Source: an uncultured bacterium
GTDB taxonomy: Bacteria > Patescibacteriota > JABMPQ01 > CAVVCK01
Direction of reading: 5' to 3'
Assembly: GCA_963746775.1 (NCBI GenBank)
Contig: CAVVCK010000002.1
Coordinates: forward strand, 431,656 to 495,655
DNA: 64,000 bases
The position numbers and the translations under genes were made by a program. The notes under the pieces were generated by a model that saw only the letters and a list, made by a program, of their open reading frames with translations, was not told where the DNA came from and ran no database searches. Of the stretch, positions 418-60,613 are shown in pieces (positions within the stretch are counted from its first letter, which is position 1; each line of letters begins with the position of its first letter).

Positions 418-2769
418 TTACTCTTTCTTACCTAACACAAACCCATAAACTTTATCACTGTTTATTTTATCTTCAACCCTAAATGTATTTTGATCTACTT
501 TTAAATTATCTGGATATTGCCAAATTGACTCATAGTCTGAAGGAAATTCTATTTGAGCCTTAAAATTAACCATATTAGGAGTTCCTGGTTGTTTTTGGAC
601 TAATAAACTATGTTTTTCAGCTAATTTACTTCCTAATGATATTTTAAAAGGCAGCTTATATTTTAACACTATTTCTTTTTCTTCTCCTACCTCTAACCCA
701 GAAAAGTTCCCAAAAACTGTCTTACCACTTTCTTCCGTTATACGAGTCTGAGATGGCTCATGAATCACTGTACTATCCTCAATCTCTTTTATTAAAGAGT
801 CGTCCTTTGCATTTCCATCTGCAGGCATTAAAACATTATAAAATTGATTATCAAAGCCAGAAGCATCTATTAAAATACTTCCTTTGGGTACATAGAGCCT
901 GAGATAAGAAACATTCTTAGTTCTAGTCCAAAAATCATTTTTATCACCATTGTGTTTTCTTTTTATTTTAACAGTATTTATGATTGACCCATCTGACTGT
1001 ATCTCGGAATTATAATCTATTCCTTGATCTATCACCTGATCTGTTTTACCTCCTCCAATATTACTTGCTACTAAAGATAAATAGTCTCCTTCTGTCTCCT
1101 TAACTTCCCCTCCCCAACCAAAATCTTTAATTAAATTTTCTAACTCTTCATCGGAAAAGTAAATTAAAATATCTTTCTTATAAAAACTATTTATAAATGC
1201 ATCCAGAACTTCTGGCCACTTATCTTTGTCGACATTAGATATTTTTTCAAAAAATTTTGGAAATAAATCAGCAATAAATTTTTTAGGTTTATTTAATTGC
1301 TTATCGTAATCTATCTCGACTTCTTTTTGAGCTTCGTTGAAAAAATTTTCGGAGGTAACTGTAACATTATAATCAGGCATTTCAATCGGTCCAGTTACTT
1401 TTAATAAATCTTCAAAAACAGAAGCTGTGAAAGTAACTACACCATCAACAGTTGGTCCACCTGCTTTCTCTTGCATTATATTAACTTTTTCAGCTGATGT
1501 TGGAAAATCTAGAAACCAATTAGCATCACGCATATATAACCTGGTTTGTATTAAGCGCATAGCTTCAGGAGCTTTTACATTATCTGTCAGCTGGCCATCA
1601 ATATTATAGGGTCCCTCTATTTTTAAATTGTTAATTTTACCCTCATCCATATCAAAAATACCATAAGTACCAATAAATCCTCCTGTAGCTCTTAACTCAC
1701 GATTGTTTTGAAAAAGTAATAAATATTTACGAGGCTGATTATGACCCAATAACTTTAATATTAAATCTACGTGAGCTGAAAAATATTCTAAGCCTTTTTC
1801 TAATTTAGGAATGCTTGATTTAAGTATTATCACTTGTGATTTATACTCTTCGGGAAAATCTTCTGCTTTTACATCTTCTAAATCAAGATTTGCTTGTTTA
1901 ATATTTTTTTGAGCTAATAAAATGTTTTCATAAGAAGAAGCCAGAGCAGTAGTAAATGATATTTTATTGTAAGAGGGTACTTTTTCGTTATTTTCTCCCT
2001 TAAATTCTGAAAATATATCTTCGGTTTTTGAAAAAGGTTCAAAAGCCTGAGTTAAACATTTAGAAGCATAGGAAACATTGGCACCAGCCTCTAATAATTT
2101 TTCTCCAGAATAAATACTTGATCCGCCAGGTACTTCTCTTAATAAACGAGCTATTATCTCACCTGTTCTGCCTAATTCTGATCCAGCCGCTTCAAAACGC
2201 TCAGCCGCTACATTAAACTTATAAGAAGCGAGATTATAGTCTTTTTCCATTATCGATCCTTCACCTGACATTAAATATTGATAAGCCACATTTGTATCAT
2301 CTAATATTTTGCCTTTTGTCTTAGATAAATTATTATCAACAAAAGCAAACCCTTTAATTGAAGATGTAAAAAATAAAGCAATTATTATAAAGGCAGTAAA
2401 TGATTTTTTTAAAAACAATAGCTTTTTAAATGAAATAAGCCCATTAGTCACTTGGTTAAAATTAAAATTTTTAACCACTGATTTTATAGTATTTAGCAAA
2501 TATTTCAATACTTTATCGTTCTTTCCCTTAAAACTTAAAATACTACTATTTTCTAAGTTTTGATTGGTCGCTCTTTCTGTCCCCTGTAACCTTAAATTAG
2601 ACTGAGTCGATTCATTAAATATTTTGTTTTGCTTATTTATATCAATGCTTCTTTTCTTATATACTTTATTTTTTTGGTCACCAAAATATTCCTGTTTTCT
2701 TTTTATCACTAAAACAGGTTTGATATCTGAGTAAAACCTTTTTTTATTTTTATTTGATTTTTCCTCCAT
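418..2769 (-). CDS. DUF4012-type membrane-anchored extracytoplasmic protein (783 aa)
   Basis: One N-proximal TM segment (FTAFIIIALFFTSSIKGFAF) precedes a large domain containing LLLFQNNRELRATGGFIGTYGIFDMDEGKI, which I recognise as the DUF4012 signature. The gene is co-directional with the glycosyltransferases. Confidence 0.75.
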   Translation of the reverse strand: MEEKSNKNKKRFYSDIKPVLVIKRKQEYFGDQKNKVYKKRSIDINKQNKIFNESTQSNLRLQGTERATNQNLENSSILSFKGKNDKVLKYLLNTIKSVVKNFNFNQVTNGLISFKKLLFLKKSFTAFIIIALFFTSSIKGFAFVDNNLSKTKGKILDDTNVAYQYLMSGEGSIMEKDYNLASYKFNVAAERFEAAGSELGRTGEIIARLLREVPGGSSIYSGEKLLEAGANVSYASKCLTQAFEPFSKTEDIFSEFKGENNEKVPSYNKISFTTALASSYENILLAQKNIKQANLDLEDVKAEDFPEEYKSQVIILKSSIPKLEKGLEYFSAHVDLILKLLGHNQPRKYLLLFQNNRELRATGGFIGTYGIFDMDEGKINNLKIEGPYNIDGQLTDNVKAPEAMRLIQTRLYMRDANWFLDFPTSAEKVNIMQEKAGGPTVDGVVTFTASVFEDLLKVTGPIEMPDYNVTVTSENFFNEAQKEVEIDYDKQLNKPKKFIADLFPKFFEKISNVDKDKWPEVLDAFINSFYKKDILIYFSDEELENLIKDFGWGGEVKETEGDYLSLVASNIGGGKTDQVIDQGIDYNSEIQSDGSIINTVKIKRKHNGDKNDFWTRTKNVSYLRLYVPKGSILIDASGFDNQFYNVLMPADGNAKDDSLIKEIEDSTVIHEPSQTRITEESGKTVFGNFSGLEVGEEKEIVLKYKLPFKISLGSKLAEKHSLLVQKQPGTPNMVNFKAQIEFPSDYESIWQYPDNLKVDQNTFRVEDKINSDKVYGFVLGKKE

Positions 2770-29937: not shown

Positions 29938-32232
29938 TTATTCTTCTTTTAGTTTATATAAGTAATATTCTCCTTCATGGGCTACTAGATCCATGTGTTT
30001 GTTTTTAAATTTTATCACCCTTTTGTAATTATCTAAAGTAAAATTAGCATATTCTTGTGAGCCATTTTCTTGTTTAGCCCACAATATTCTTTCCGAAATA
30101 TTTTCCGTATACCCTCTCCAAATAAAATATCTTATGTTAAAATTTTTTAATACTCGGATAACATGTTCCTCAGTATTATTTTTTAATAAATAACTAATAT
30201 ATAATAAATAATGATCTTGTATATAACGGTTATTAGAGTTATCTATATAATAACCCCTTGCTTGATCTAATCCCCAAATCATTTCTTTATTATCTAAATT
30301 ATTATTTAAATATTCTGACATTAAATACAATTTATCTCTCGATATACTCGGATCTGGTGAATATAGAGACATATAATTTATTCTTTTGTTAAATTGTAAA
30401 TTTCCAATTGTAATTATCCAGATCGATAAGAATGTATATAAAAATAATTTTAGGTATTTATTTCTTGTAAAAAATATTTGACTCAATAAAACAAAAAATA
30501 AAACATACAATGAAATAGCATACCAGATAACAACATGTCCTATATAAACCCAACCGAAATATAGAATAATAGTAGCAAACAATAGTAAAATAAATTCCCT
30601 TTTCAATTTCCTATAAAATATATTCTTTATATAATAAAATATTATAACTGGAGCAAAAAGAATAAATGTAAAACCTATGTTTAACGCATCAGAAATATAT
30701 TTTTTATTTCCTATATAAGTAATATCAAAAGGTATATTTAAAAAATAACTCAAATCCTTTTTTTGTTTATCATCCCATATCAAGTAAGCTTCATTTCTCA
30801 TCTCATTAACTATATATTTTTGTGAATCTCGACCTAAAGTATCATAAAAAGATTGTTTTGAAGCTAACTTCTCACTTAAAATTGGGTCAATCGGGTTACC
30901 GCTAAATTTAATATTTCTGACAAACCATGGCAACATAAAAATAAATATTATTAATCCCCAAATAAAAAAATATTTTACTTTTATTTTATTTCTAATTATT
31001 TGTACTAGAAAAAATATTACCAACGGAACAATATACCATGTTAGAAAAAAATATTTTAACCCGGCCGCGATACCACAGAAAACACTAAAAATAATTAAGT
31101 CTTTTATTTTTCTTTTTTTTAGATAGTTTATAAAAGAACAATAACTGATCAATGTATAAAAAACAAAAATCATTTCTATTTTATGGTCTTCTAAATTTTG
31201 AAAAAATATTACAGGCAATGTTAAATAGGCAATAATAGCATAAACGCCACCCTTTAATTTATTTTTTCTAAAGAAATAATAAATGCATAAAACAATTAAT
31301 AAAGTAAAAATAAAAATAAGCGCTAAAGTTATTTGGAAGTTAAAAAGTAAATATCCTAAAGTAAATAACATTTCTCCATTTTGAGGAAAACCATAATAAA
31401 TCCAATAAGGAAAATTTACTATCCCATGATTCTCAACGAAAATCTTAGGATAAGTTAAATAGGAAATGAAAGCATCAAAACCAGAAGGAAATTGCTGAAA
31501 TATACCCGAAATATCAATTCCTAAAATCACAGGAATAATTAAAAAAATACCTTTTCCAAATAAAGTTAATTTTTTGAGTTCATAAAAATTATTTTTATCT
31601 TTAAAATAAGTCCACAATTCTATAATTTCTTTATAAGTAACAAAGGTTACAATAATCATTAAAACATAAGCAATAATTCTATAATATAAACCAAACATTC
31701 CTAAAAAATACACAATAAACATTAAAGCACCAAATCCTAGAGCACAAGAAAATAAAAACTTTTCTAAAAAAAAGCTAGTTTTATATTTAAATATTTTTAA
31801 TGTTTTACAACCTAAAGAAAAAGATATTAAAAATATCCAGGAAACTAAAATAATAGTAATTATATCATTACCAATAACGCCTAAATTATAAGAAGATCTA
31901 GCATAAATCCAGATAATCCATAAAAATGTAAAAAAATATAAAGACAAAGGCAAATAATATACAGGTATTTTTAAATCATTTATCTTATTTTTAAGTCCTT
32001 TTCTGCTTATTGACATAAAGTCTTTAATTTTTTTGCTTGGCCAAAAAATAATTAAAACTATTTTAAACAAAGCTAAAATATTAGCTATAAGTAAAGCAAA
32101 AGTAACAAACAAAGCTACTGATGATATAAATGCTTCTCCATAGTTAGGAAAACTATAAAAATAATAAACTATTACAACAATTCCCCACATCAGGAATAAT
32201 CCTGCAAAAATTTTTGAATAATATTTTTTCAT
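29938..32232 (-). CDS. Large polytopic membrane protein (764 aa), possibly a GT-C-type glycosyltransferase
   Basis: More than 14 hydrophobic segments followed by a soluble C-terminal domain. The function call is by architecture only. Confidence 0.4.
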   Translation of the reverse strand: MKKYYSKIFAGLFLMWGIVVIVYYFYSFPNYGEAFISSVALFVTFALLIANILALFKIVLIIFWPSKKIKDFMSISRKGLKNKINDLKIPVYYLPLSLYFFTFLWIIWIYARSSYNLGVIGNDIITIILVSWIFLISFSLGCKTLKIFKYKTSFFLEKFLFSCALGFGALMFIVYFLGMFGLYYRIIAYVLMIIVTFVTYKEIIELWTYFKDKNNFYELKKLTLFGKGIFLIIPVILGIDISGIFQQFPSGFDAFISYLTYPKIFVENHGIVNFPYWIYYGFPQNGEMLFTLGYLLFNFQITLALIFIFTLLIVLCIYYFFRKNKLKGGVYAIIAYLTLPVIFFQNLEDHKIEMIFVFYTLISYCSFINYLKKRKIKDLIIFSVFCGIAAGLKYFFLTWYIVPLVIFFLVQIIRNKIKVKYFFIWGLIIFIFMLPWFVRNIKFSGNPIDPILSEKLASKQSFYDTLGRDSQKYIVNEMRNEAYLIWDDKQKKDLSYFLNIPFDITYIGNKKYISDALNIGFTFILFAPVIIFYYIKNIFYRKLKREFILLLFATIILYFGWVYIGHVVIWYAISLYVLFFVLLSQIFFTRNKYLKLFLYTFLSIWIITIGNLQFNKRINYMSLYSPDPSISRDKLYLMSEYLNNNLDNKEMIWGLDQARGYYIDNSNNRYIQDHYLLYISYLLKNNTEEHVIRVLKNFNIRYFIWRGYTENISERILWAKQENGSQEYANFTLDNYKRVIKFKNKHMDLVAHEGEYYLYKLKEE

Positions 32233-56999: not shown

Positions 57000-57029
57000 T
57001 TGCATTTATTCTTTATTTCGTATTATAAT
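57000..57029 (+). promoter_or_regulatory. Promoter-like TTGCAT-N18-TATAAT placed 6 nt before an ATG (possible leaderless mRNA)
   Basis: TTGCAT at 57000-57005, TATAAT at 57024-57029, ATG at 57036. Confidence 0.4.
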
Positions 57030-57035
57030 TACTCT

Positions 57036-57410
57036 ATGCAAATAAACATCCTAAAAAGCAAAAATCTCCAGCAATCCACATCTGAAATTACTAGAGACAT
57101 TTTTGAAGTATTTTCTATTTTTTATTTAATTTTATTATTAGTAAATCAAATAAAAATAGGCTTTGTGAGTGATTTCTTAAATTTAAATCATATCTTAATA
57201 ATTGTTGTAGTCTCAGGACTTTTATCTCTCTGGAAAGAAAAATTAGAAGTGGGCAATAGAGATTATGTTTTTATTGTAATTTTGGCTCTGCTTGGAGCTA
57301 TGGCTATATTCTATAAAACTTCTATCTTCGGAAATTTTAAAGCTTCTATTTTCGCTTTCTTGAGTTTTGTTTTTATTATTTTAGTTTTATTTTTTTTATT
57401 AAAGAAGTAA
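57036..57410 (+). CDS. Hypothetical 124-aa membrane protein (the track ORF starts earlier at TTG 57000)
   Basis: Four hydrophobic segments. Followed by a terminator. Confidence 0.55.
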   Translation: MQINILKSKNLQQSTSEITRDIFEVFSIFYLILLLVNQIKIGFVSDFLNLNHILIIVVVSGLLSLWKEKLEVGNRDYVFIVILALLGAMAIFYKTSIFGNFKASIFAFLSFVFIILVLFFLLKK

Positions 57411-57423
57411 ATTGTTTTGCATT

Positions 57424-57454
57424 AAAAAAGACTGCACAAGAGCAATCTTTTTTT
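57424..57454. terminator. Bidirectional terminator AAAAAAGACTGC acaaga GCAATCTTTTTTT
   Basis: Between convergent genes. Confidence 0.7.
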
Positions 57455-57463
57455 ATTTATTAT

Positions 57464-58489
57464 TTAATAACCAATAGCTTGCCACTGTATTTCAGCCTCA
57501 GCAGGATAAGTAGAGCTACTCCAGTATACCCTAAAAGTATCACCATCTACTCGACTTATATATAAATTACCCAATTCACTTTCAGTTAATGTAGGATTAT
57601 TTTGACTGGTTGTTACATTATAGCTCGTATTACTTGTAAAAAAATTAGATGGTAATTCAATGGTATCAGAACAGCCCGCGATTACTGGGCAACCTGCTCC
57701 CCCTGAGGCACTAACATTAGCTACTCCGACTATTATTTTACTTGGATAAGGGTTAGGATTAGGCGTAGTTAAATTTGTATCAGAACCACTATCAGTACTA
57801 TAATAAACAGCATTTTCATTAGATACATCCACTCCATCTACATCACCACTCACGGTTAAATTACTTATACTTAAATCATCATCCACCCTCAACGTCACCT
57901 CTCCACTTGTTCCTCCGCCAGATAATCCTGTTCCAGCAGTAATTCCGGTAATATCACCTCCATTTACCCATTCTAAAGCCTCTCCATTATAGGATAGTAC
58001 TTGATTAGTTGAAGCAGCATTAGTAGTAGCTAGGTTATTAGTATGAATTACTCCTGTTCCTAACAAATTACCTACAGTTACCTCACCAGCAAAATAGGCA
58101 TCTTTCCACTGATTATCTTCCGTCCCTATATCGTTAACATTATTTAGAGCAGGCATTAGCGTATCGGCTATCTTTAAAGGCATATCATCAGCTGTTCCTT
58201 TAGAAGGCCCTCTCCAAATCATACCATCTACTCTTAAGTCATCACCCATAGTCAGAGGAACACTACCTGCTGAATTATTAATCATGGTACCATTGAAAAA
58301 AGTTACTCCGCCTTCGCCGGTAGTTTTACCAATGTAAGCAGAATCAAACCTGGCAGTACCATTAACTGTTAGATCCTCGTTGTAGGTAATAGTTTGAGCT
58401 GGTTGAAGATCGGTAGCGGGGGAAGCAGAGGCTAGATCCACCAAAGCGAAGATGCCTAAAATTGTTAGGAAAGGCAATAGTTTTTTCAT
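57464..58489 (-). CDS. Secreted fibre/adhesin-like protein (341 aa), paralogous N-module with the upstream gene
   Basis: Signal peptide MKKLLPFLTILGIFALVDLASA. Module PLTMGDDLRVDGMIWRGPSKG...NDIGTEDNQWKDAYFAGEVTVG... Confidence 0.75.
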   Translation of the reverse strand: MKKLLPFLTILGIFALVDLASASPATDLQPAQTITYNEDLTVNGTARFDSAYIGKTTGEGGVTFFNGTMINNSAGSVPLTMGDDLRVDGMIWRGPSKGTADDMPLKIADTLMPALNNVNDIGTEDNQWKDAYFAGEVTVGNLLGTGVIHTNNLATTNAASTNQVLSYNGEALEWVNGGDITGITAGTGLSGGGTSGEVTLRVDDDLSISNLTVSGDVDGVDVSNENAVYYSTDSGSDTNLTTPNPNPYPSKIIVGVANVSASGGAGCPVIAGCSDTIELPSNFFTSNTSYNVTTSQNNPTLTESELGNLYISRVDGDTFRVYWSSSTYPAEAEIQWQAIGY

Positions 58490-58525
58490 TTTCTAAAGAA
58501 TTATTAATATTTCCTATATTATCAC

Positions 58526-60526
58526 TTATTGCAAACTGAGCAAAGTCATAATTTTACATTCCTCTTGATCACAAGACTCTAACGCTTTACCAAAAATAGA
58601 ATTTCTTCTTTCTTCGTTTTCTTTTAAGATAGATTTTAGCCCATCAAAATCACTAGCCTCATCAGTATCGCGTAAAGTAAATTTCATTGCATATCCTTCT
58701 CGAGAGGAGGTTGTTAATAGATCTCCGATTTCTATATTACCATTTTCGTTGATAACTTTTGTCGGAATTCTACCCGCCAAGGTAATTGGTGCCAAATTTT
58801 CGGGCATTTCATAATCTGCATCTAGACCTCCTAAACTACTAAAATTATTTGATTCTCCATCGAAATTAAAAGAAATGTTAGGAGTAGTACTCACTACGCC
58901 AATTACTCTTTTATCATAAGATGTATTAGTATGACCAACTTTTACATTGTCTACTAAAACAACTACGTCTCCTTTTTCTAGTTTTTTATTCGTAGAAAAT
59001 CCTTCAGCAAGATCATAGGCAGCTCCATCAACCCCGGTATCATATGATATAGTACCGTCGCCAACATCTGGACAACCAGCTCCAGGATTATTGCTTGGAT
59101 CATCTACACAAAGTCCGCCAAAAACTGCAAATACACCTTCTCTATTATTTTCGCATAATGTTGAAGATGGATTACACTTATCTCCACCCCAACTATAACT
59201 TTTATCTCCACTTGTAGTAGCTCCATAGCCAGTTGATATAGCATATTCTCCAGTAGCACTGCCACGACCCAAAACAGCTGAGTAATCACCACTTGCCAAA
59301 GCATCATATCCTAAAGCCATAGAATAATCACCTATATTACTATTATCCCACTGAACACTGTCTACATATCCTGCTCTAAAAGCAGATTTTCTGGGATACC
59401 ATAATAATTTTGTAGCTTCACCAGAAGCTTCCAAGGTTGTAGCTGTACCATAATCACCTTGGGCCACTATCATGCCATCATCATAAATAGTTGTTCCGCC
59501 GTCTGTAGCATCTCCATATCCCCCACCCACAGAAGCAGTTCCAGTTACACCCAGTATTCCACCTAATGAAGTATTTCCACCAGCTAAAAAATTTCCATCT
59601 AAAAACAAGCTCCCGGTATCATAGATAGTAACTCCCGTAGATCCATACCCTCCGCCAACAGTTAAATTGCTAGATGCAATTACGTTACCTGTCAAAGCAC
59701 TTATTCCACCTACTGTCAACATCCCTCCTGTAGTAAGAGAACTTGCCGATAAAGCTCCATTAGCATTGATACCGCCCGTGGTGTCATAAATTGTTACCCC
59801 GCTATCACCAAATCCACCAGCGATATCAATATCAGTTCCATCATTATAAATTAAACTAGAAGCTTCCCAACCATTTGATCCATATCTTATCGTTTGGCCA
59901 GAAGTTCCCGCAGGTAAAATACCTCCGTCACTAGTTCCATCTCCATCTGAAGAACCTGTTATGGGTATCCAGGTAAATTGGCCATTTTGATTATAAGATA
60001 ATACCTGGCCAGCAGTTGCACTATTAGTTACATTAAGATTTTCTTCATTAATAATGTTTGCTCCTTCTAAATCTCCAACTGTTACTGCCCCGGCAAAATA
60101 ACCATTTTTCCATCTATTTGTAGTCGAACCAATATCATTAATATCAGTCATAGTTGGAATCATGGTATCAGATATTTTAAGGGGCATACCATCGGAAATA
60201 CCTTTGGATGTTCCTCTCCATATTTCACCATCAATACGGACATCATCTCCAAACGTTACTGGTATATTACTAATTCCATTATCATCTAAAGAAGAATTGA
60301 CAATTGTATGGTCGGCAAAAATAACACCGCCCAGATGCATGCCCTCGTAAAAATAACTTGCTCTGCCGGCACTTACAGCACTATCGGTTCTTAACCTTTC
60401 TCCGTAAATAACATCTTCGGCCGGTTGAATTTCCTCCGCAGTAGATGCCTTGGAAATATTTATATTGAAAAAGCAAAAAACAATCGCTAGAAATAAAATA
60501 ACTGCAAATTTAGCTATTTTAATCAT
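58526..60526 (-). CDS. Secreted fibre/adhesin-like protein (666 aa) with Gly-rich internal repeats
   Basis: Signal peptide. Shared N-module. Three copies of the GG(F/Y)G..G.TIYD repeat. YadA-head-like YSMALGYDALASGDYSAVLGRGSATGEYAISTGYGATTSG. Beta-rich C-terminal domain. Confidence 0.75.
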   Translation of the reverse strand: MIKIAKFAVILFLAIVFCFFNINISKASTAEEIQPAEDVIYGERLRTDSAVSAGRASYFYEGMHLGGVIFADHTIVNSSLDDNGISNIPVTFGDDVRIDGEIWRGTSKGISDGMPLKISDTMIPTMTDINDIGSTTNRWKNGYFAGAVTVGDLEGANIINEENLNVTNSATAGQVLSYNQNGQFTWIPITGSSDGDGTSDGGILPAGTSGQTIRYGSNGWEASSLIYNDGTDIDIAGGFGDSGVTIYDTTGGINANGALSASSLTTGGMLTVGGISALTGNVIASSNLTVGGGYGSTGVTIYDTGSLFLDGNFLAGGNTSLGGILGVTGTASVGGGYGDATDGGTTIYDDGMIVAQGDYGTATTLEASGEATKLLWYPRKSAFRAGYVDSVQWDNSNIGDYSMALGYDALASGDYSAVLGRGSATGEYAISTGYGATTSGDKSYSWGGDKCNPSSTLCENNREGVFAVFGGLCVDDPSNNPGAGCPDVGDGTISYDTGVDGAAYDLAEGFSTNKKLEKGDVVVLVDNVKVGHTNTSYDKRVIGVVSTTPNISFNFDGESNNFSSLGGLDADYEMPENLAPITLAGRIPTKVINENGNIEIGDLLTTSSREGYAMKFTLRDTDEASDFDGLKSILKENEERRNSIFGKALESCDQEECKIMTLLSLQ

Positions 60527-60584: not shown

Positions 60585-60613
60585 ATTATAGCAAATTATA
60601 GCCTTGCGGTCAA
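60585..60613 (-). promoter_or_regulatory. Promoter TTGACC-N17-TATAAT upstream of the fibre-protein genes
   Basis: Minus strand has TTGACC at 60613..60608 and TATAAT at 60590..60585. Confidence 0.55.

What the first reader, a model, noticed from the sequence alone, without database searches (positions are those of the whole stretch)
57464..60526. Tandem secreted fibre/adhesin-like paralogues sharing a ~140-aa N-module, next to UDP-uronic-acid genes
Both proteins have signal peptides and an alignable module, identical at roughly half of positions by eye:
- 666-aa protein: P(V/L)T(F/M)GDD(V/L)R(I/V)DG.IWRG.SKG...MPLKI.DT..P....(I/V)NDIG...N.WK..YFAG.VTVG.L...NL..TN.A...QVLSYN.
- DNA coordinates are about 59957-60409 and 57965-58387.

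The NDIGsttNrWk..Yf motif recalls phage tail-fibre and collar repeats.

The longer protein adds three features:
- three GG(Y/F)G..G.TIYD repeats
- a YadA-head-like segment (YSMALGYDALASGDYSAVLGRGSATGEYAISTGYGATTSG)
- a beta-rich C-terminal domain (VIGVVSTTPN...LAGRIPTKVINENGNIEIGDLLTTSSREGYAMK)

The pair has its own promoter (60585-60613) and a shared terminator. In an episymbiotic CPR cell such fibres are candidates for host attachment.
Basis: partly seen in the sequence, partly recalled or inferred. Interest (0 to 1): 0.6.

Follow-up and report, generated by a model that had tools for sequence, protein, structure and literature searches.

The report
Secreted phage-tail-fibre-like fibres in CPR bacterium
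Two neighbouring genes of a tiny-genome CPR (Patescibacteria) bacterium encode exported, phage-tail-fibre-like proteins that share a lineage-specific N-terminal module but carry different, swappable outer ends, which makes them good but untested candidates for how these bacteria recognise the cells they live on.

Summary
Genes A (58526-60526, 666 aa) and B (57464-58489, 341 aa) are tandem paralogues, 44% identical over 171 aa (E = 5e-44), and both have signal-peptide-like leaders.

- **Shared N-module.** It defines an unannotated family (no Pfam or NCBIfam model) that is almost confined to Patescibacteria. Single MAGs carry up to 10 loci, often in tandem arrays. The module always follows the leader. 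Its second half is a phage tail-spike/fibre unit (PDB 6eu4, 8i4m; Pfam End_tail_spike stalk).
- **Gene B.** It ends in a small tip that weakly resembles pyocin/phage fibre tips and lectins.
- **Tip exchange.** In a near-identical sister genome, B's orthologue is 100% identical for 205 residues and then unrelated. Across 252 family members the tips fall into at least 39 types.
- **Not a prophage.** The flanks are housekeeping genes with conserved synteny, and the N-module is absent from IMG/VR viral contigs.

Best reading: trimeric, modular surface fibres with a conserved proximal anchor and exchangeable distal binding tips. Attachment to a host is inferred, not shown.

The parts
60585..60613 (-). 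Promoter-like site upstream of gene A (TTGACC, 17-nt spacer with TG, TATAAT)
   Evidence: (11 of 12 consensus matches) and the sequence. This is a consensus match only. It lies in the 157-nt gap after the epimerase gene.
58526..60526 (-). Gene A: 666-aa exported fibre protein (leader, N-module, shaft, YadA-like head, Cys-rich neck, G2-type autochaperone)
60443..60526 (-). A residues 1-28: signal-peptide-like leader (MIKIAKFAVILFLAIVFCFFNINISKA|ST)
   Evidence: Sequence features. The leader is modelled as a helix (residues 2-21). The same features are conserved across the family.
60047..60430 (-). A residues 33-160: family-defining N-module (QPA..., GGVIF, TFGDDVRIDGEIWRG, PLKISDT..P, NDIGSTTNRWKNGYF). 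Residues ~101-160 form the phage tail-spike-type repeat unit
   Evidence: Alignment A3, profile searches and 71%/62% identity to orthologue P0002.
59477..59836 (-). A residues 231-350: Gly-rich shaft with three GG(Y/F)G..G.TIYD repeats (237-248, 292-303, 335-349)
   Evidence: pLDDT is low in the monomer model. The same repeat occurs in P0003, P0012 and P0049.
59177..59476 (-). A residues 351-450: YadA-like beta-roll head
59015..59176 (-). A residues 451-504: Cys-rich neck (C451, C458, C473, C485). It would become the distal end of the mature fibre if the chaperone is cleaved off. It is the least conserved segment (35% identity to P0002)
58529..59014 (-). A residues 505-666: phi29-gp12-type (Peptidase_G2-like) C-terminal intramolecular chaperone. 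It begins with the invariant D505-L-A-E508, and the predicted auto-cleavage lies before D505
57464..58489 (-). Gene B: 341-aa exported fibre protein (leader, N-module, phage-like linker, small tip)
58424..58489 (-). B residues 1-22: signal-peptide-like leader (MKKLLPFLTILGIFALVDLASA|SP)
   Evidence: Sequence features and family conservation.
58040..58411 (-). B residues 27-150: N-module
   Evidence: B scores 210.9 bits against the family profile.
57875..58039 (-). B residues 151-205: linker ...QVLSYNGEALEWVNGGDITGITAGTGLSGGGTSGEVTLRVDDD, shared with phage tail fibres. The strain-level recombination breakpoint lies at its end, after residue 205
   Evidence: PHROG 38058 tail fibre, E = 5.7e-7. 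Phage proteins P0100-P0147 match it.
57467..57874 (-). B residues 206-341: distal tip domain (beta-sandwich, C267/C273, ends ..WQAIGY)
   Evidence: Weak Pfam Gp53-like_C hit, E = 0.016, below the cut-off. Foldseek hits to R-pyocin fibre tips, tail-spike receptor-binding domains and H-type lectins at E ~0.1. It is 71% identical to the tip of syntenic orthologue P0035. Its tip cluster has 16 members.
57421..57456 (.). Hairpin AAAAAAGATTGC-tcttgt-GCAGTCTTTTTT directly after B's stop: a possible bidirectional terminator
   Evidence: The stem is weak and low in GC, and the stricter scan did not call it.

Best explanation
A and B are cellular (not viral) extracellular fibre proteins, probably homotrimeric and exported by the Sec pathway. 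They are built from phage-tail-fibre parts.

**Proposed assembly and function**
1. After export, the chains trimerise from the C-terminal end.
2. In A, this is nucleated by a phi29-gp12-type intramolecular chaperone (residues 505-666). The chaperone is then predicted to cut itself off in front of Asp505. That would expose a YadA-like head and a Cys-rich neck as the distal end.
3. B has no such chaperone and ends in a small lectin-like or fibre-tip-like domain.
4. The conserved N-terminal module holds the base of the fibre at the cell surface. This could be by docking onto a common envelope structure, or together with an uncleaved leader.
5. The variable C-terminal parts bind external ligands.

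The module comprises an invariant QPA shortly after the leader, GGVTFFNG and FGDD.RIDG motifs, and then a tail-spike-type unit.

**The wider family.** The family behaves like a set of phage receptor-binding proteins: one constant 'adaptor' end, many interchangeable 'tips', several paralogues per genome, and tip replacement by recombination at a conserved linker. In an episymbiotic CPR bacterium the most likely ligands are surface structures of the host cell.

**Shown versus inferred**
- Shown: paralogy, domain identities, family distribution, modularity and the strain-level swap.
- Inferred: trimer state, cleavage, surface anchoring and the host-binding role.
For: **Paralogy and operon-like layout:**

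**Export:** a leader with a K/R n-region, a hydrophobic core and a small-x-small site is present in A, B and about 176 of 178 family members. The module always starts at residue ~20-55 in 109 ORFs from 81 loci. Paired cysteines also fit an extracellular protein.

**Phage-fibre parts**
- The N-module's second half matches the AS12 tail spike (6eu4, E = 3.6e-4) and a cyanophage fibre (8i4m).
- The same unit is repeated 9-33 times in giant proteins that hit the stalk end of Pfam End_tail_spike.
- B residues 103-202 match ~547-aa proteins that sit after SU10 portal/adaptor genes on phage contigs and hit six PHROG tail-fibre families.

**Chaperone**
- The profile alignment begins at gp12 fragment residue 1, DFAEYF, opposite the invariant D-x-A-E.
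- Seven of 20 relatives hit Peptidase_G2.
- Mature gp12* ends at residue 691 (PMC6542822). The gp12 C-domain is an autochaperone needed for trimer folding and is cleaved afterwards (PMC3357383, PMC4690869).
- Family paralogues use the other known fibre chaperone, Peptidase_S74, in the same position.

**Trimer-type folds:** the YadA-like head and the gp12 C-domain/capsid-decoration fold.

**Constant anchor, variable tip**
- Against orthologue P0002 the N-module head is the most conserved segment (71%) and the neck the least (35%).
- 252 unique members have tips in at least 39 clusters.
- P0031 is 100% identical to B for 205 residues and then unrelated. Its tip is 81% identical to that of a different lineage's member, while B's tip matches the syntenic orthologue.

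**Cellular, CPR-specific**
- 132 loci were found in one-genome-per-species bacteria and archaea, nearly all in Patescibacteria, with up to 10 per MAG.
- Synteny metK-ugd-epimerase-[fibres]-rpsL is conserved in a genome whose orthologue is only 52% identical.
- There is no relative in IMG/VR or in INPHARED phage genomes.
Against: - No experiment or multimer model supports trimerisation, cleavage or surface localisation.
- Both AF2 monomer models have mean pLDDT of only 65-67. The shaft is below 50 and the N-module is 54-85.
- A itself gives no Pfam Peptidase_G2 hit at E <= 1. The sequence-level links to gp12 are weak (E = 0.35; best 3e-4 among relatives).
- The residue before the predicted cleavage site is not conserved (Y in A), whereas phi29 has Ser691.
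- From my memory of Xiang et al. 2009 (paper not held), release of the gp12 chaperone is ATP-dependent. That could not apply outside the cell.
- No conserved neighbouring gene that could encode an anchoring partner was found.
- B's tip matches are all at E ~0.1 on a domain with pLDDT 45-70.
- Nothing links either protein to a host cell, and the organism's lifestyle is unknown.
Confidence: 0.62

Rival explanations
1. The genes are prophage or phage-remnant tail-fibre genes, or fibres of a tailocin or contractile injection system. They would assemble onto a virus-like particle in the cytoplasm.
For: Several modules have phage tail-fibre/spike relatives. NCBI names some homologues 'tail fiber domain-containing protein'.
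Against: - Both proteins and about 176 of 178 relatives carry signal-peptide-like leaders. That does not fit proteins that assemble onto particles in the cytoplasm (inference from general knowledge).
- The flanks are metK, ugd and an epimerase on one side and rpsL-rpsG-fusA on the other. The same synteny holds in a genome with only 52% protein identity.
- No capsid, portal, terminase, sheath or baseplate genes lie nearby.
- The N-module is absent from 2.9 million IMG/VR contigs. A and B have no match in 50,697 phage genomes.
- Up to 10 dispersed loci occur per MAG.
Confidence: 0.05
2. They are released, not anchored. They would be soluble secreted lectin-like or bacteriocin-like fibres, or decoys that bind phages or competitors away from the cell. 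The N-module would then be only a trimerisation or stability element.
For: No anchoring motif was found: no LPXTG, no lipobox and no C-terminal anchor. No conserved partner gene was found either. A conserved small-x-small site suggests that the leader is cleaved.
Against: The N-module head is the most conserved part of the protein between orthologues (71%). It is invariant at several positions across about 250 members despite unrelated tips. That fits a shared binding partner better than simple trimerisation, which the repeat unit and the chaperones already provide. There is no PADLOC hit. The evidence is indirect either way.
Confidence: 0.15
3. They are structural envelope components, such as S-layer-associated or cell-wall-associated fibres or glycocalyx scaffolds linked to the adjacent nucleotide-sugar genes. 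The tip diversity would reflect immune or phage evasion rather than host binding.
For: The linkage to a UDP-glucose dehydrogenase-family gene and an epimerase is conserved in two genomes. The proteins are extracellular fibrous architectures. Surface variation driven by phage pressure is common (general knowledge).
Against: The linkage was seen only at this one locus. Other family loci sit next to unrelated genes such as groES/EL and M23 peptidase. Lectin-like and fibre-tip-like ends and a YadA-like head are typical of binding proteins, not scaffolds. This rival overlaps with the best explanation rather than excluding it.
Confidence: 0.13

Closest known systems
Bacillus phage phi29 gp12 pre-neck appendage (tail spike) with its C-terminal autochaperone; Pfam PF11962 Peptidase_G2; PDB 3suc, 3gqh, 3gq7
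   Different: - A is a cellular protein with a signal peptide and would fold outside the cytoplasm.
- The residue before the D is Tyr, not Ser.
- A has a helical insertion (~617-641) in the chaperone.
- A does not reach any Pfam Peptidase_G2 score.
Phage endosialidase / T5 pb1-type tail spikes and fibres with a Peptidase_S74 intramolecular chaperone (Pfam PF13884, PF12219; PDB 1v0e, 3gw6)
   Same: The ND.G...W..Y unit of the N-module corresponds to the stalk end of End_tail_spike and to solved tail-spike/fibre segments. Sixteen family members, including paralogue P0045 of the same organism, end in Peptidase_S74.
   Different: Neither A nor B has an S74 domain. There is no catalytic sialidase domain. 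The proteins are exported cellular products.
Trimeric autotransporter adhesins (YadA, UspA1, BoaA, AtaA, CbpF)
   Different: - There is no YadA_anchor beta-barrel and no coiled-coil stalk.
- The polarity is opposite: TAAs are anchored by the C-terminus, whereas here the conserved end is N-terminal.
- The organism is presumably monoderm (general knowledge about CPR; not tested here).
Bacterial 'tail fiber domain-containing proteins' of Bacteroidota and others (for example P0008, P0015, P0016): secreted proteins with YadA_head-like repeats plus an S74 or G2-like C-terminus
   Same: They share A's head motif (..WYP.K.AFRAG...W...N.G..S.A.G..) and, in P0016, A's exact chaperone subtype (41% identity over 165 aa, including the helical insertion).
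   Different: They lack the CPR N-module and the GG(Y/F)G shaft. As far as I could find they are uncharacterised.
R-type pyocin and phage tail-fibre tips; Pfam PF21882 Gp53-like_C; H-type lectins
   Same: B's last ~90-110 residues give their best fold matches to these receptor-binding tips and a sub-threshold Gp53-like_C hit.
   Different: All matches are weak (E ~0.1; 16 bits against a cut-off of 24.9) on a medium-confidence model, so membership is not established.

Membership tests
Peptidase_G2 / phi29 gp12-type intramolecular chaperone (A residues 505-666) | Fold of the gp12 C-terminal autochaperone fragment | tested here: met
Peptidase_G2 / phi29 gp12-type intramolecular chaperone (A residues 505-666) | Located at the extreme C-terminus, directly after a fibrous or beta-helical passenger | tested here: met
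   In A and in all 19 relatives of alignment A1 the domain ends the protein and follows Gly-rich or YadA-like repeats.
Peptidase_G2 / phi29 gp12-type intramolecular chaperone (A residues 505-666) | Conserved acidic residues at the domain's N-terminal boundary, equivalent to gp12 D692 and E695 | tested here: met
   D, A and E of D-x-A-E are at least 90% conserved in A1 (A: D505, A507, E508). They align with DFAE at residues 1-4 of chain 3gqh. Mature gp12* ends at residue 691 (PMC6542822). That these residues are catalytic is from my memory only.
Peptidase_G2 / phi29 gp12-type intramolecular chaperone (A residues 505-666) | Significant match to Pfam PF11962 | tested here: inconclusive
   A has no hit at E <= 1. 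Seven of 20 relatives hit it, the best at E = 3e-4.
Peptidase_G2 / phi29 gp12-type intramolecular chaperone (A residues 505-666) | Autoproteolytic release after trimerisation | not testable with these tools
   This needs expression, mass spectrometry and site-directed mutants.
Trimeric autotransporter adhesin (YadA family) | YadA_head beta-roll repeats | tested here: met
Trimeric autotransporter adhesin (YadA family) | C-terminal YadA_anchor outer-membrane beta-barrel | tested here: not met
   No such Pfam hit at E <= 1. The C-terminus is the gp12-type domain instead. A is therefore not a TAA.
Trimeric autotransporter adhesin (YadA family) | Coiled-coil stalk | tested here: not met
   The model has no long helices apart from the leader and one 15-residue helix inside the chaperone.
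Peptidase_S74 fibre/spike proteins | C-terminal PF13884 domain | tested here: not met
   It is absent from A and B. It is present in paralogues and relatives P0007, P0009, P0010, P0013, P0037, P0038, P0045 and P0047.
Virion tail fibre (phage or prophage gene) | Encoded in a phage structural module, with no export signal | tested here: not met
   The flanks are housekeeping genes with conserved synteny. Leaders are present. The N-module is absent from IMG/VR, and there is no match in phage genomes.
Patescibacteria N-module fibre family (unnamed; defined here) | Leader, then Q-P-A about 6-12 residues after the h-region, then GGV(T/I)(F/Y)(F/A), (T)(F/I/M)(G/A)D..R(I/V)DG, K..D...P and ND.G...W..Y | tested here: met
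   A and B are rows of alignment A3 and carry all the invariant positions. B scores 210.9 bits against the profile. 227 representatives score at E <= 1e-30.
Gp53-like_C tail-fibre tip (B residues 275-341) | Match to PF21882 above the gathering score | tested here: not met
   B scores 16.1 bits against a cut-off of 24.9, and P0035 scores 15.2 bits. There is only a fold-level resemblance to fibre tips.

The most novel reading that the evidence does not exclude
The conserved N-module is a docking adaptor. It plugs a repertoire of interchangeable, phage-derived receptor-binding fibres into one conserved surface structure of Patescibacteria. These fibres would then be the host-range determinants of episymbiotic CPR cells, a cellular counterpart of phage receptor-binding proteins. 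Tip swapping between strains, as seen for B against P0031, would retarget the symbiont to new hosts.
Probability: 0.3. Interest if true: 0.8.

Novelty: new variant of a known kind. Interest (0 to 1): 0.6.

Why it matters
How ultrasmall CPR/Patescibacteria find and hold on to their host cells is described as largely unknown (PMC12206443 abstract). The one genetic screen available points to pili, a T4SS and 'multiple adhesins' (PMC10633639). This locus exposes an unannotated, lineage-specific and strongly expanded family. It has the design of phage receptor-binding proteins: a constant base, exchangeable tips and self-cleaving folding chaperones. There is also direct evidence of recent tip exchange between near-identical strains. 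That yields concrete candidates for host-specificity determinants, a sequence profile with which to find them in any CPR genome, and testable predictions (trimerisation, cleavage before D505, binding of recombinant tips to host cells). It also shows that both known classes of tail-fibre intramolecular chaperone (S74 and G2) have been recruited for proteins that fold outside the cell.

Tried and rejected
- **PDB sequence searches.** Single-sequence searches with A and B found nothing. Only profiles gave leads.
- **NCBIfam and PADLOC.** No hits, so there is no curated name and no defence-system membership.
- **Phage genome collection.** tblastn with A and B found no match.
- **IMG/VR scan with the N-module.** 106 pattern matches, none confirmed. 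The prophage/phage idea was rejected.
- **Conserved partner or anchor gene.** Clustering 832 neighbouring ORFs from 81 loci turned up nothing universal. The best candidate is an NHL-repeat-like secreted protein near 8 loci.
- **Intragenomic gene conversion as the source of the strain-level tip swap.** Rejected: the same-organism paralogue P0043's tip is only 36% identical to P0031's, against 81% for a foreign member. There is no silent cassette in the window.
- **Sister strain's DNA, or contigs encoding B.** Not on record, so the breakpoint could be examined only at protein level.
- **Names for the proteins.** The NCBI records carry none.
- **Primary phi29 gp12 paper (Xiang et al. 2009).** Not held. 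Its statements on catalytic residues and ATP-dependent release are from memory only.
- **Pfam/PHROG scans of the common tip types.** Essentially nothing.
- **Literature on tail-fibre-like proteins in CPR.** None found.


Full report
**1. The observation**

BLASTP gives 44% identity over 171 aa (A 9-179, B 4-168), E = 5e-44. There is no third copy in the 64-kb window.

- Three GG(Y/F)G..G.TIYD repeats lie at A residues 237-248, 292-303 and 335-349.
- A has a YadA_head match above Pfam's cut-off (30.2 against 25 bits).
- The C-terminal domain is confidently modelled and beta-rich.
- The promoter-like site at 60613-60585 matches 11 of 12 consensus positions and has an extended -10 TG.
- The A-B gap is 36 nt, and a hairpin with flanking A- and T-tracts lies right after B's stop (57421-57456).
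- The upstream genes are a UDP-glucose/GDP-mannose dehydrogenase-family gene and an NAD-dependent epimerase/dehydratase.

The leaders look like Sec signal peptides, and the same features recur in about 176 of 178 relatives. No dedicated signal-peptide predictor was available.

**2. Context**

The window is ~31% GC, and almost all its genes are on the minus strand. The pair lies between metK-ugd-epimerase and rpsL-rpsG-fusA. The same order is found in a related 1.05-Mb contig whose A orthologue (P0002) is only 52% identical. That contig carries three tandem family genes: P0002, P0003 and P0035.

Three things fit a CPR/Patescibacteria organism, though they do not prove it:
- The source contig is ~547 kb.
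- S5 is followed directly by L15 with no L30 gene. By my own recollection, loss of L30 is a CPR trait.
- Named homologues are Patescibacteria/Parcubacteria.

**3. The N-module is a family signature**

A search with B returned 171 proteins. About 85 of them share residues 1-150 but have unrelated C-terminal parts.

A clean alignment (A3) shows:
- an invariant Q-P-A a few residues after the predicted signal-peptidase site;
- then GGV(T/I)F, (T)FGDD.R(I/V)DG and K..D...P;
- then ND.G...W..Y.

An exhaustive profile search of 1.84 billion representatives found 3,353 hits at E <= 1e-3 and 227 at E <= 1e-30. The strongest are giant proteins in which only profile positions ~85-135 recur 9-33 times. 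Those giants hit the stalk end of Pfam End_tail_spike.

The same positions match solved phage proteins: AS12 tail spike 6eu4 (residues 570-602, E = 3.6e-4) and cyanophage fibre 8i4m. So the second half of the module is a standard tail-spike/fibre unit. The first half (QPA...RIDG) has no known relative.

A scan of one genome per bacterial and archaeal species found 132 loci. Nearly all are in Patescibacteria MAGs, with 8-10 loci in single MAGs. In 109 ORFs from 81 loci the module always begins at residue ~20-55, and arrays of three to six genes occur. Paralogues of the same organism lie elsewhere: P0045, with Peptidase_S74, next to groES/EL, and P0043 next to an M23/FG-GAP protein.

**4. Gene A, domain by domain**

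The AF2 model has mean pLDDT 67. Residues 350-450 and 505-666 are above 85-95, and the shaft is below 50.

At sequence level:
- The domain family (A1) has a D-x-A-E that is at least 90% conserved at its start, followed by invariant DLLTTS, G.AM and GKA motifs.
- Its profile aligns to 3gqh from chain residue 1 (DFAEYF...).
- Seven of 20 members hit Pfam Peptidase_G2.

Mature gp12* ends at residue 691 (PMC6542822). The gp12 C-domain is an autochaperone that is required for trimer folding and is then cleaved off (PMC3357383, PMC4690869). I therefore predict that A folds from this domain and is cut before Asp505. That would leave the YadA-like head and the four-Cys neck (451-504) as the distal end.

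Against orthologue P0002, identity falls from 71% in the N-module head to 35% in the neck, while the chaperone is 60%. This is the pattern expected for a conserved base, a variable tip and a conserved folding device.

**5. Gene B**

After the N-module comes the linker ..QVLSYNGEALEWVNGGDITGITAGTGLSGGGTSGEVTLRVDDD. It matches PHROG 38058 'tail fiber protein' (E = 5.7e-7). It also matches ~547-aa proteins encoded after SU10_portal/SU10_adaptor genes on phage contigs. One of those proteins hits six PHROG tail-fibre families.

The tip (206-341) is modelled at medium confidence. Its matches are weak but thematically consistent: R-pyocin fibre tips, tail-spike receptor-binding ends and H-type lectins (E ~0.1), plus a sub-threshold Gp53-like_C hit.

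**6. Modularity and exchange**

P0031, from a 547,309-bp sister contig, is identical to B at all of the first 205 residues, ending ...TLRVDDD, and unrelated afterwards.
- B's tip is 71% identical to the tip of the syntenic orthologue P0035, so it is the resident tip at this locus.
- P0031's tip is 81% identical to a member from another lineage (P0040), but only 36% identical to the same-organism paralogue P0043.
- This argues for import of a foreign cassette rather than internal gene conversion.

Among 252 unique members (median length 316 aa) the tips form at least 39 clusters, with sizes 81, 38, 26, 16, 16 and smaller. Sixteen members end in Peptidase_S74. Only A and P0002 have the G2 type.

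**7. Rivals**

- **Prophage or tailocin origin.** Contradicted by the leaders, the housekeeping flanks and synteny, and the absence of the module from IMG/VR and of A and B from phage genomes.
- **Freely released fibres.** Cannot be excluded. There is no anchoring motif and no conserved partner gene. However, the N-module head is the best-conserved part, which argues for a shared binding partner.
- **A purely structural or glycocalyx role.** This rests only on the neighbouring sugar genes, a linkage not seen at other family loci.

**8. Comparison with known systems and novelty**

Functionally, A works like a tail spike with an intramolecular chaperone combined with a YadA-like head.
- It is not a trimeric autotransporter: there is no anchor barrel and no coiled coil, and the polarity is opposite.
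- It is not an S74 protein.
- It is not a virion component.
- The closest cellular relatives are uncharacterised 'tail fiber domain-containing proteins' of Bacteroidota-like organisms. These share the head and, in P0016, the same chaperone subtype.

What appears to be new is the Patescibacteria-specific N-module family and its phage-RBP-like organisation. I found no paper describing it. I rate it a new variant of a known kind, with interest 0.6.

**9. Limits**

- Trimer state, cleavage, anchoring and ligand are all inferred.
- The models are monomeric and of medium overall confidence.
- The catalytic role of D and E and the ATP-dependent release of the gp12 chaperone come from my memory of Xiang et al. 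2009, which could not be read here.

Noticed in passing
window 40664-41377 (-), between rplO (41439-41930) and secY (39324-40604): A 237-aa ORF with no Pfam hit is inserted inside the otherwise canonical spc ribosomal-protein operon. S5 (41957-42562) is followed directly by L15, so there is no L30 gene.
   Followed up: partly
window 57000-57410 (+): A 136-aa very hydrophobic ORF (TTG start, 3-4 membrane-helix-like segments, no Pfam hit) runs convergently with gene B. The hairpin at 57421-57456 lies between the two stop codons and could terminate both. It is one of very few plus-strand ORFs in the window.
   Followed up: partly
window 29938-32232 (-): A 764-aa PMT_2-family (protein mannosyltransferase-like) membrane glycosyltransferase lies in the lowest-GC stretch of the window, 22.8% GC at 30-32 kb.
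   Followed up: no
window 418-2769 (-): A 783-aa protein carries a DUF4012 domain.
   Followed up: no
L002 (Logan contig from ERR11571143), end of contig: The public contig that carries gene A stops 63 nt after A's stop codon, exactly where B begins. Neither B nor the sister-strain variant P0031 is in the contig index. This could be an assembly break caused by coexisting tip variants.
   Followed up: partly
L012:3782-12020 (Parcubacteria MAG bin.624): Six N-module genes lie in a row on one strand, with different tips.
   Followed up: partly
A residues ~617-641 (window ~58604-58678); also P0002 and P0016: A's chaperone domain has a helical insertion (SDFDGLKSILKENEERRNS). It is shared only with its orthologue and with a 962-aa YadA_head protein (P0016) that lacks the CPR N-module and resembles the Bacteroidota-named proteins in architecture; its own organism is not known. 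This suggests that the head-plus-chaperone cassette has moved between unrelated lineages.
   Followed up: partly
L050:2787-5840 and 7 other family loci: A large secreted NHL-repeat-like protein lies at a median of ~340 nt from the family gene in 8 of ~80 loci. It is the most frequent close neighbour, but it is far from universal.
   Followed up: no
P0169-P0177 and others (representative library): Giant proteins of 1,190-5,302 aa consist largely of 9-33 tandem copies of the ND.G...W..Y tail-spike unit. Several hit the stalk end of End_tail_spike. Their origin and context are unknown because that library carries no annotation.
   Followed up: partly
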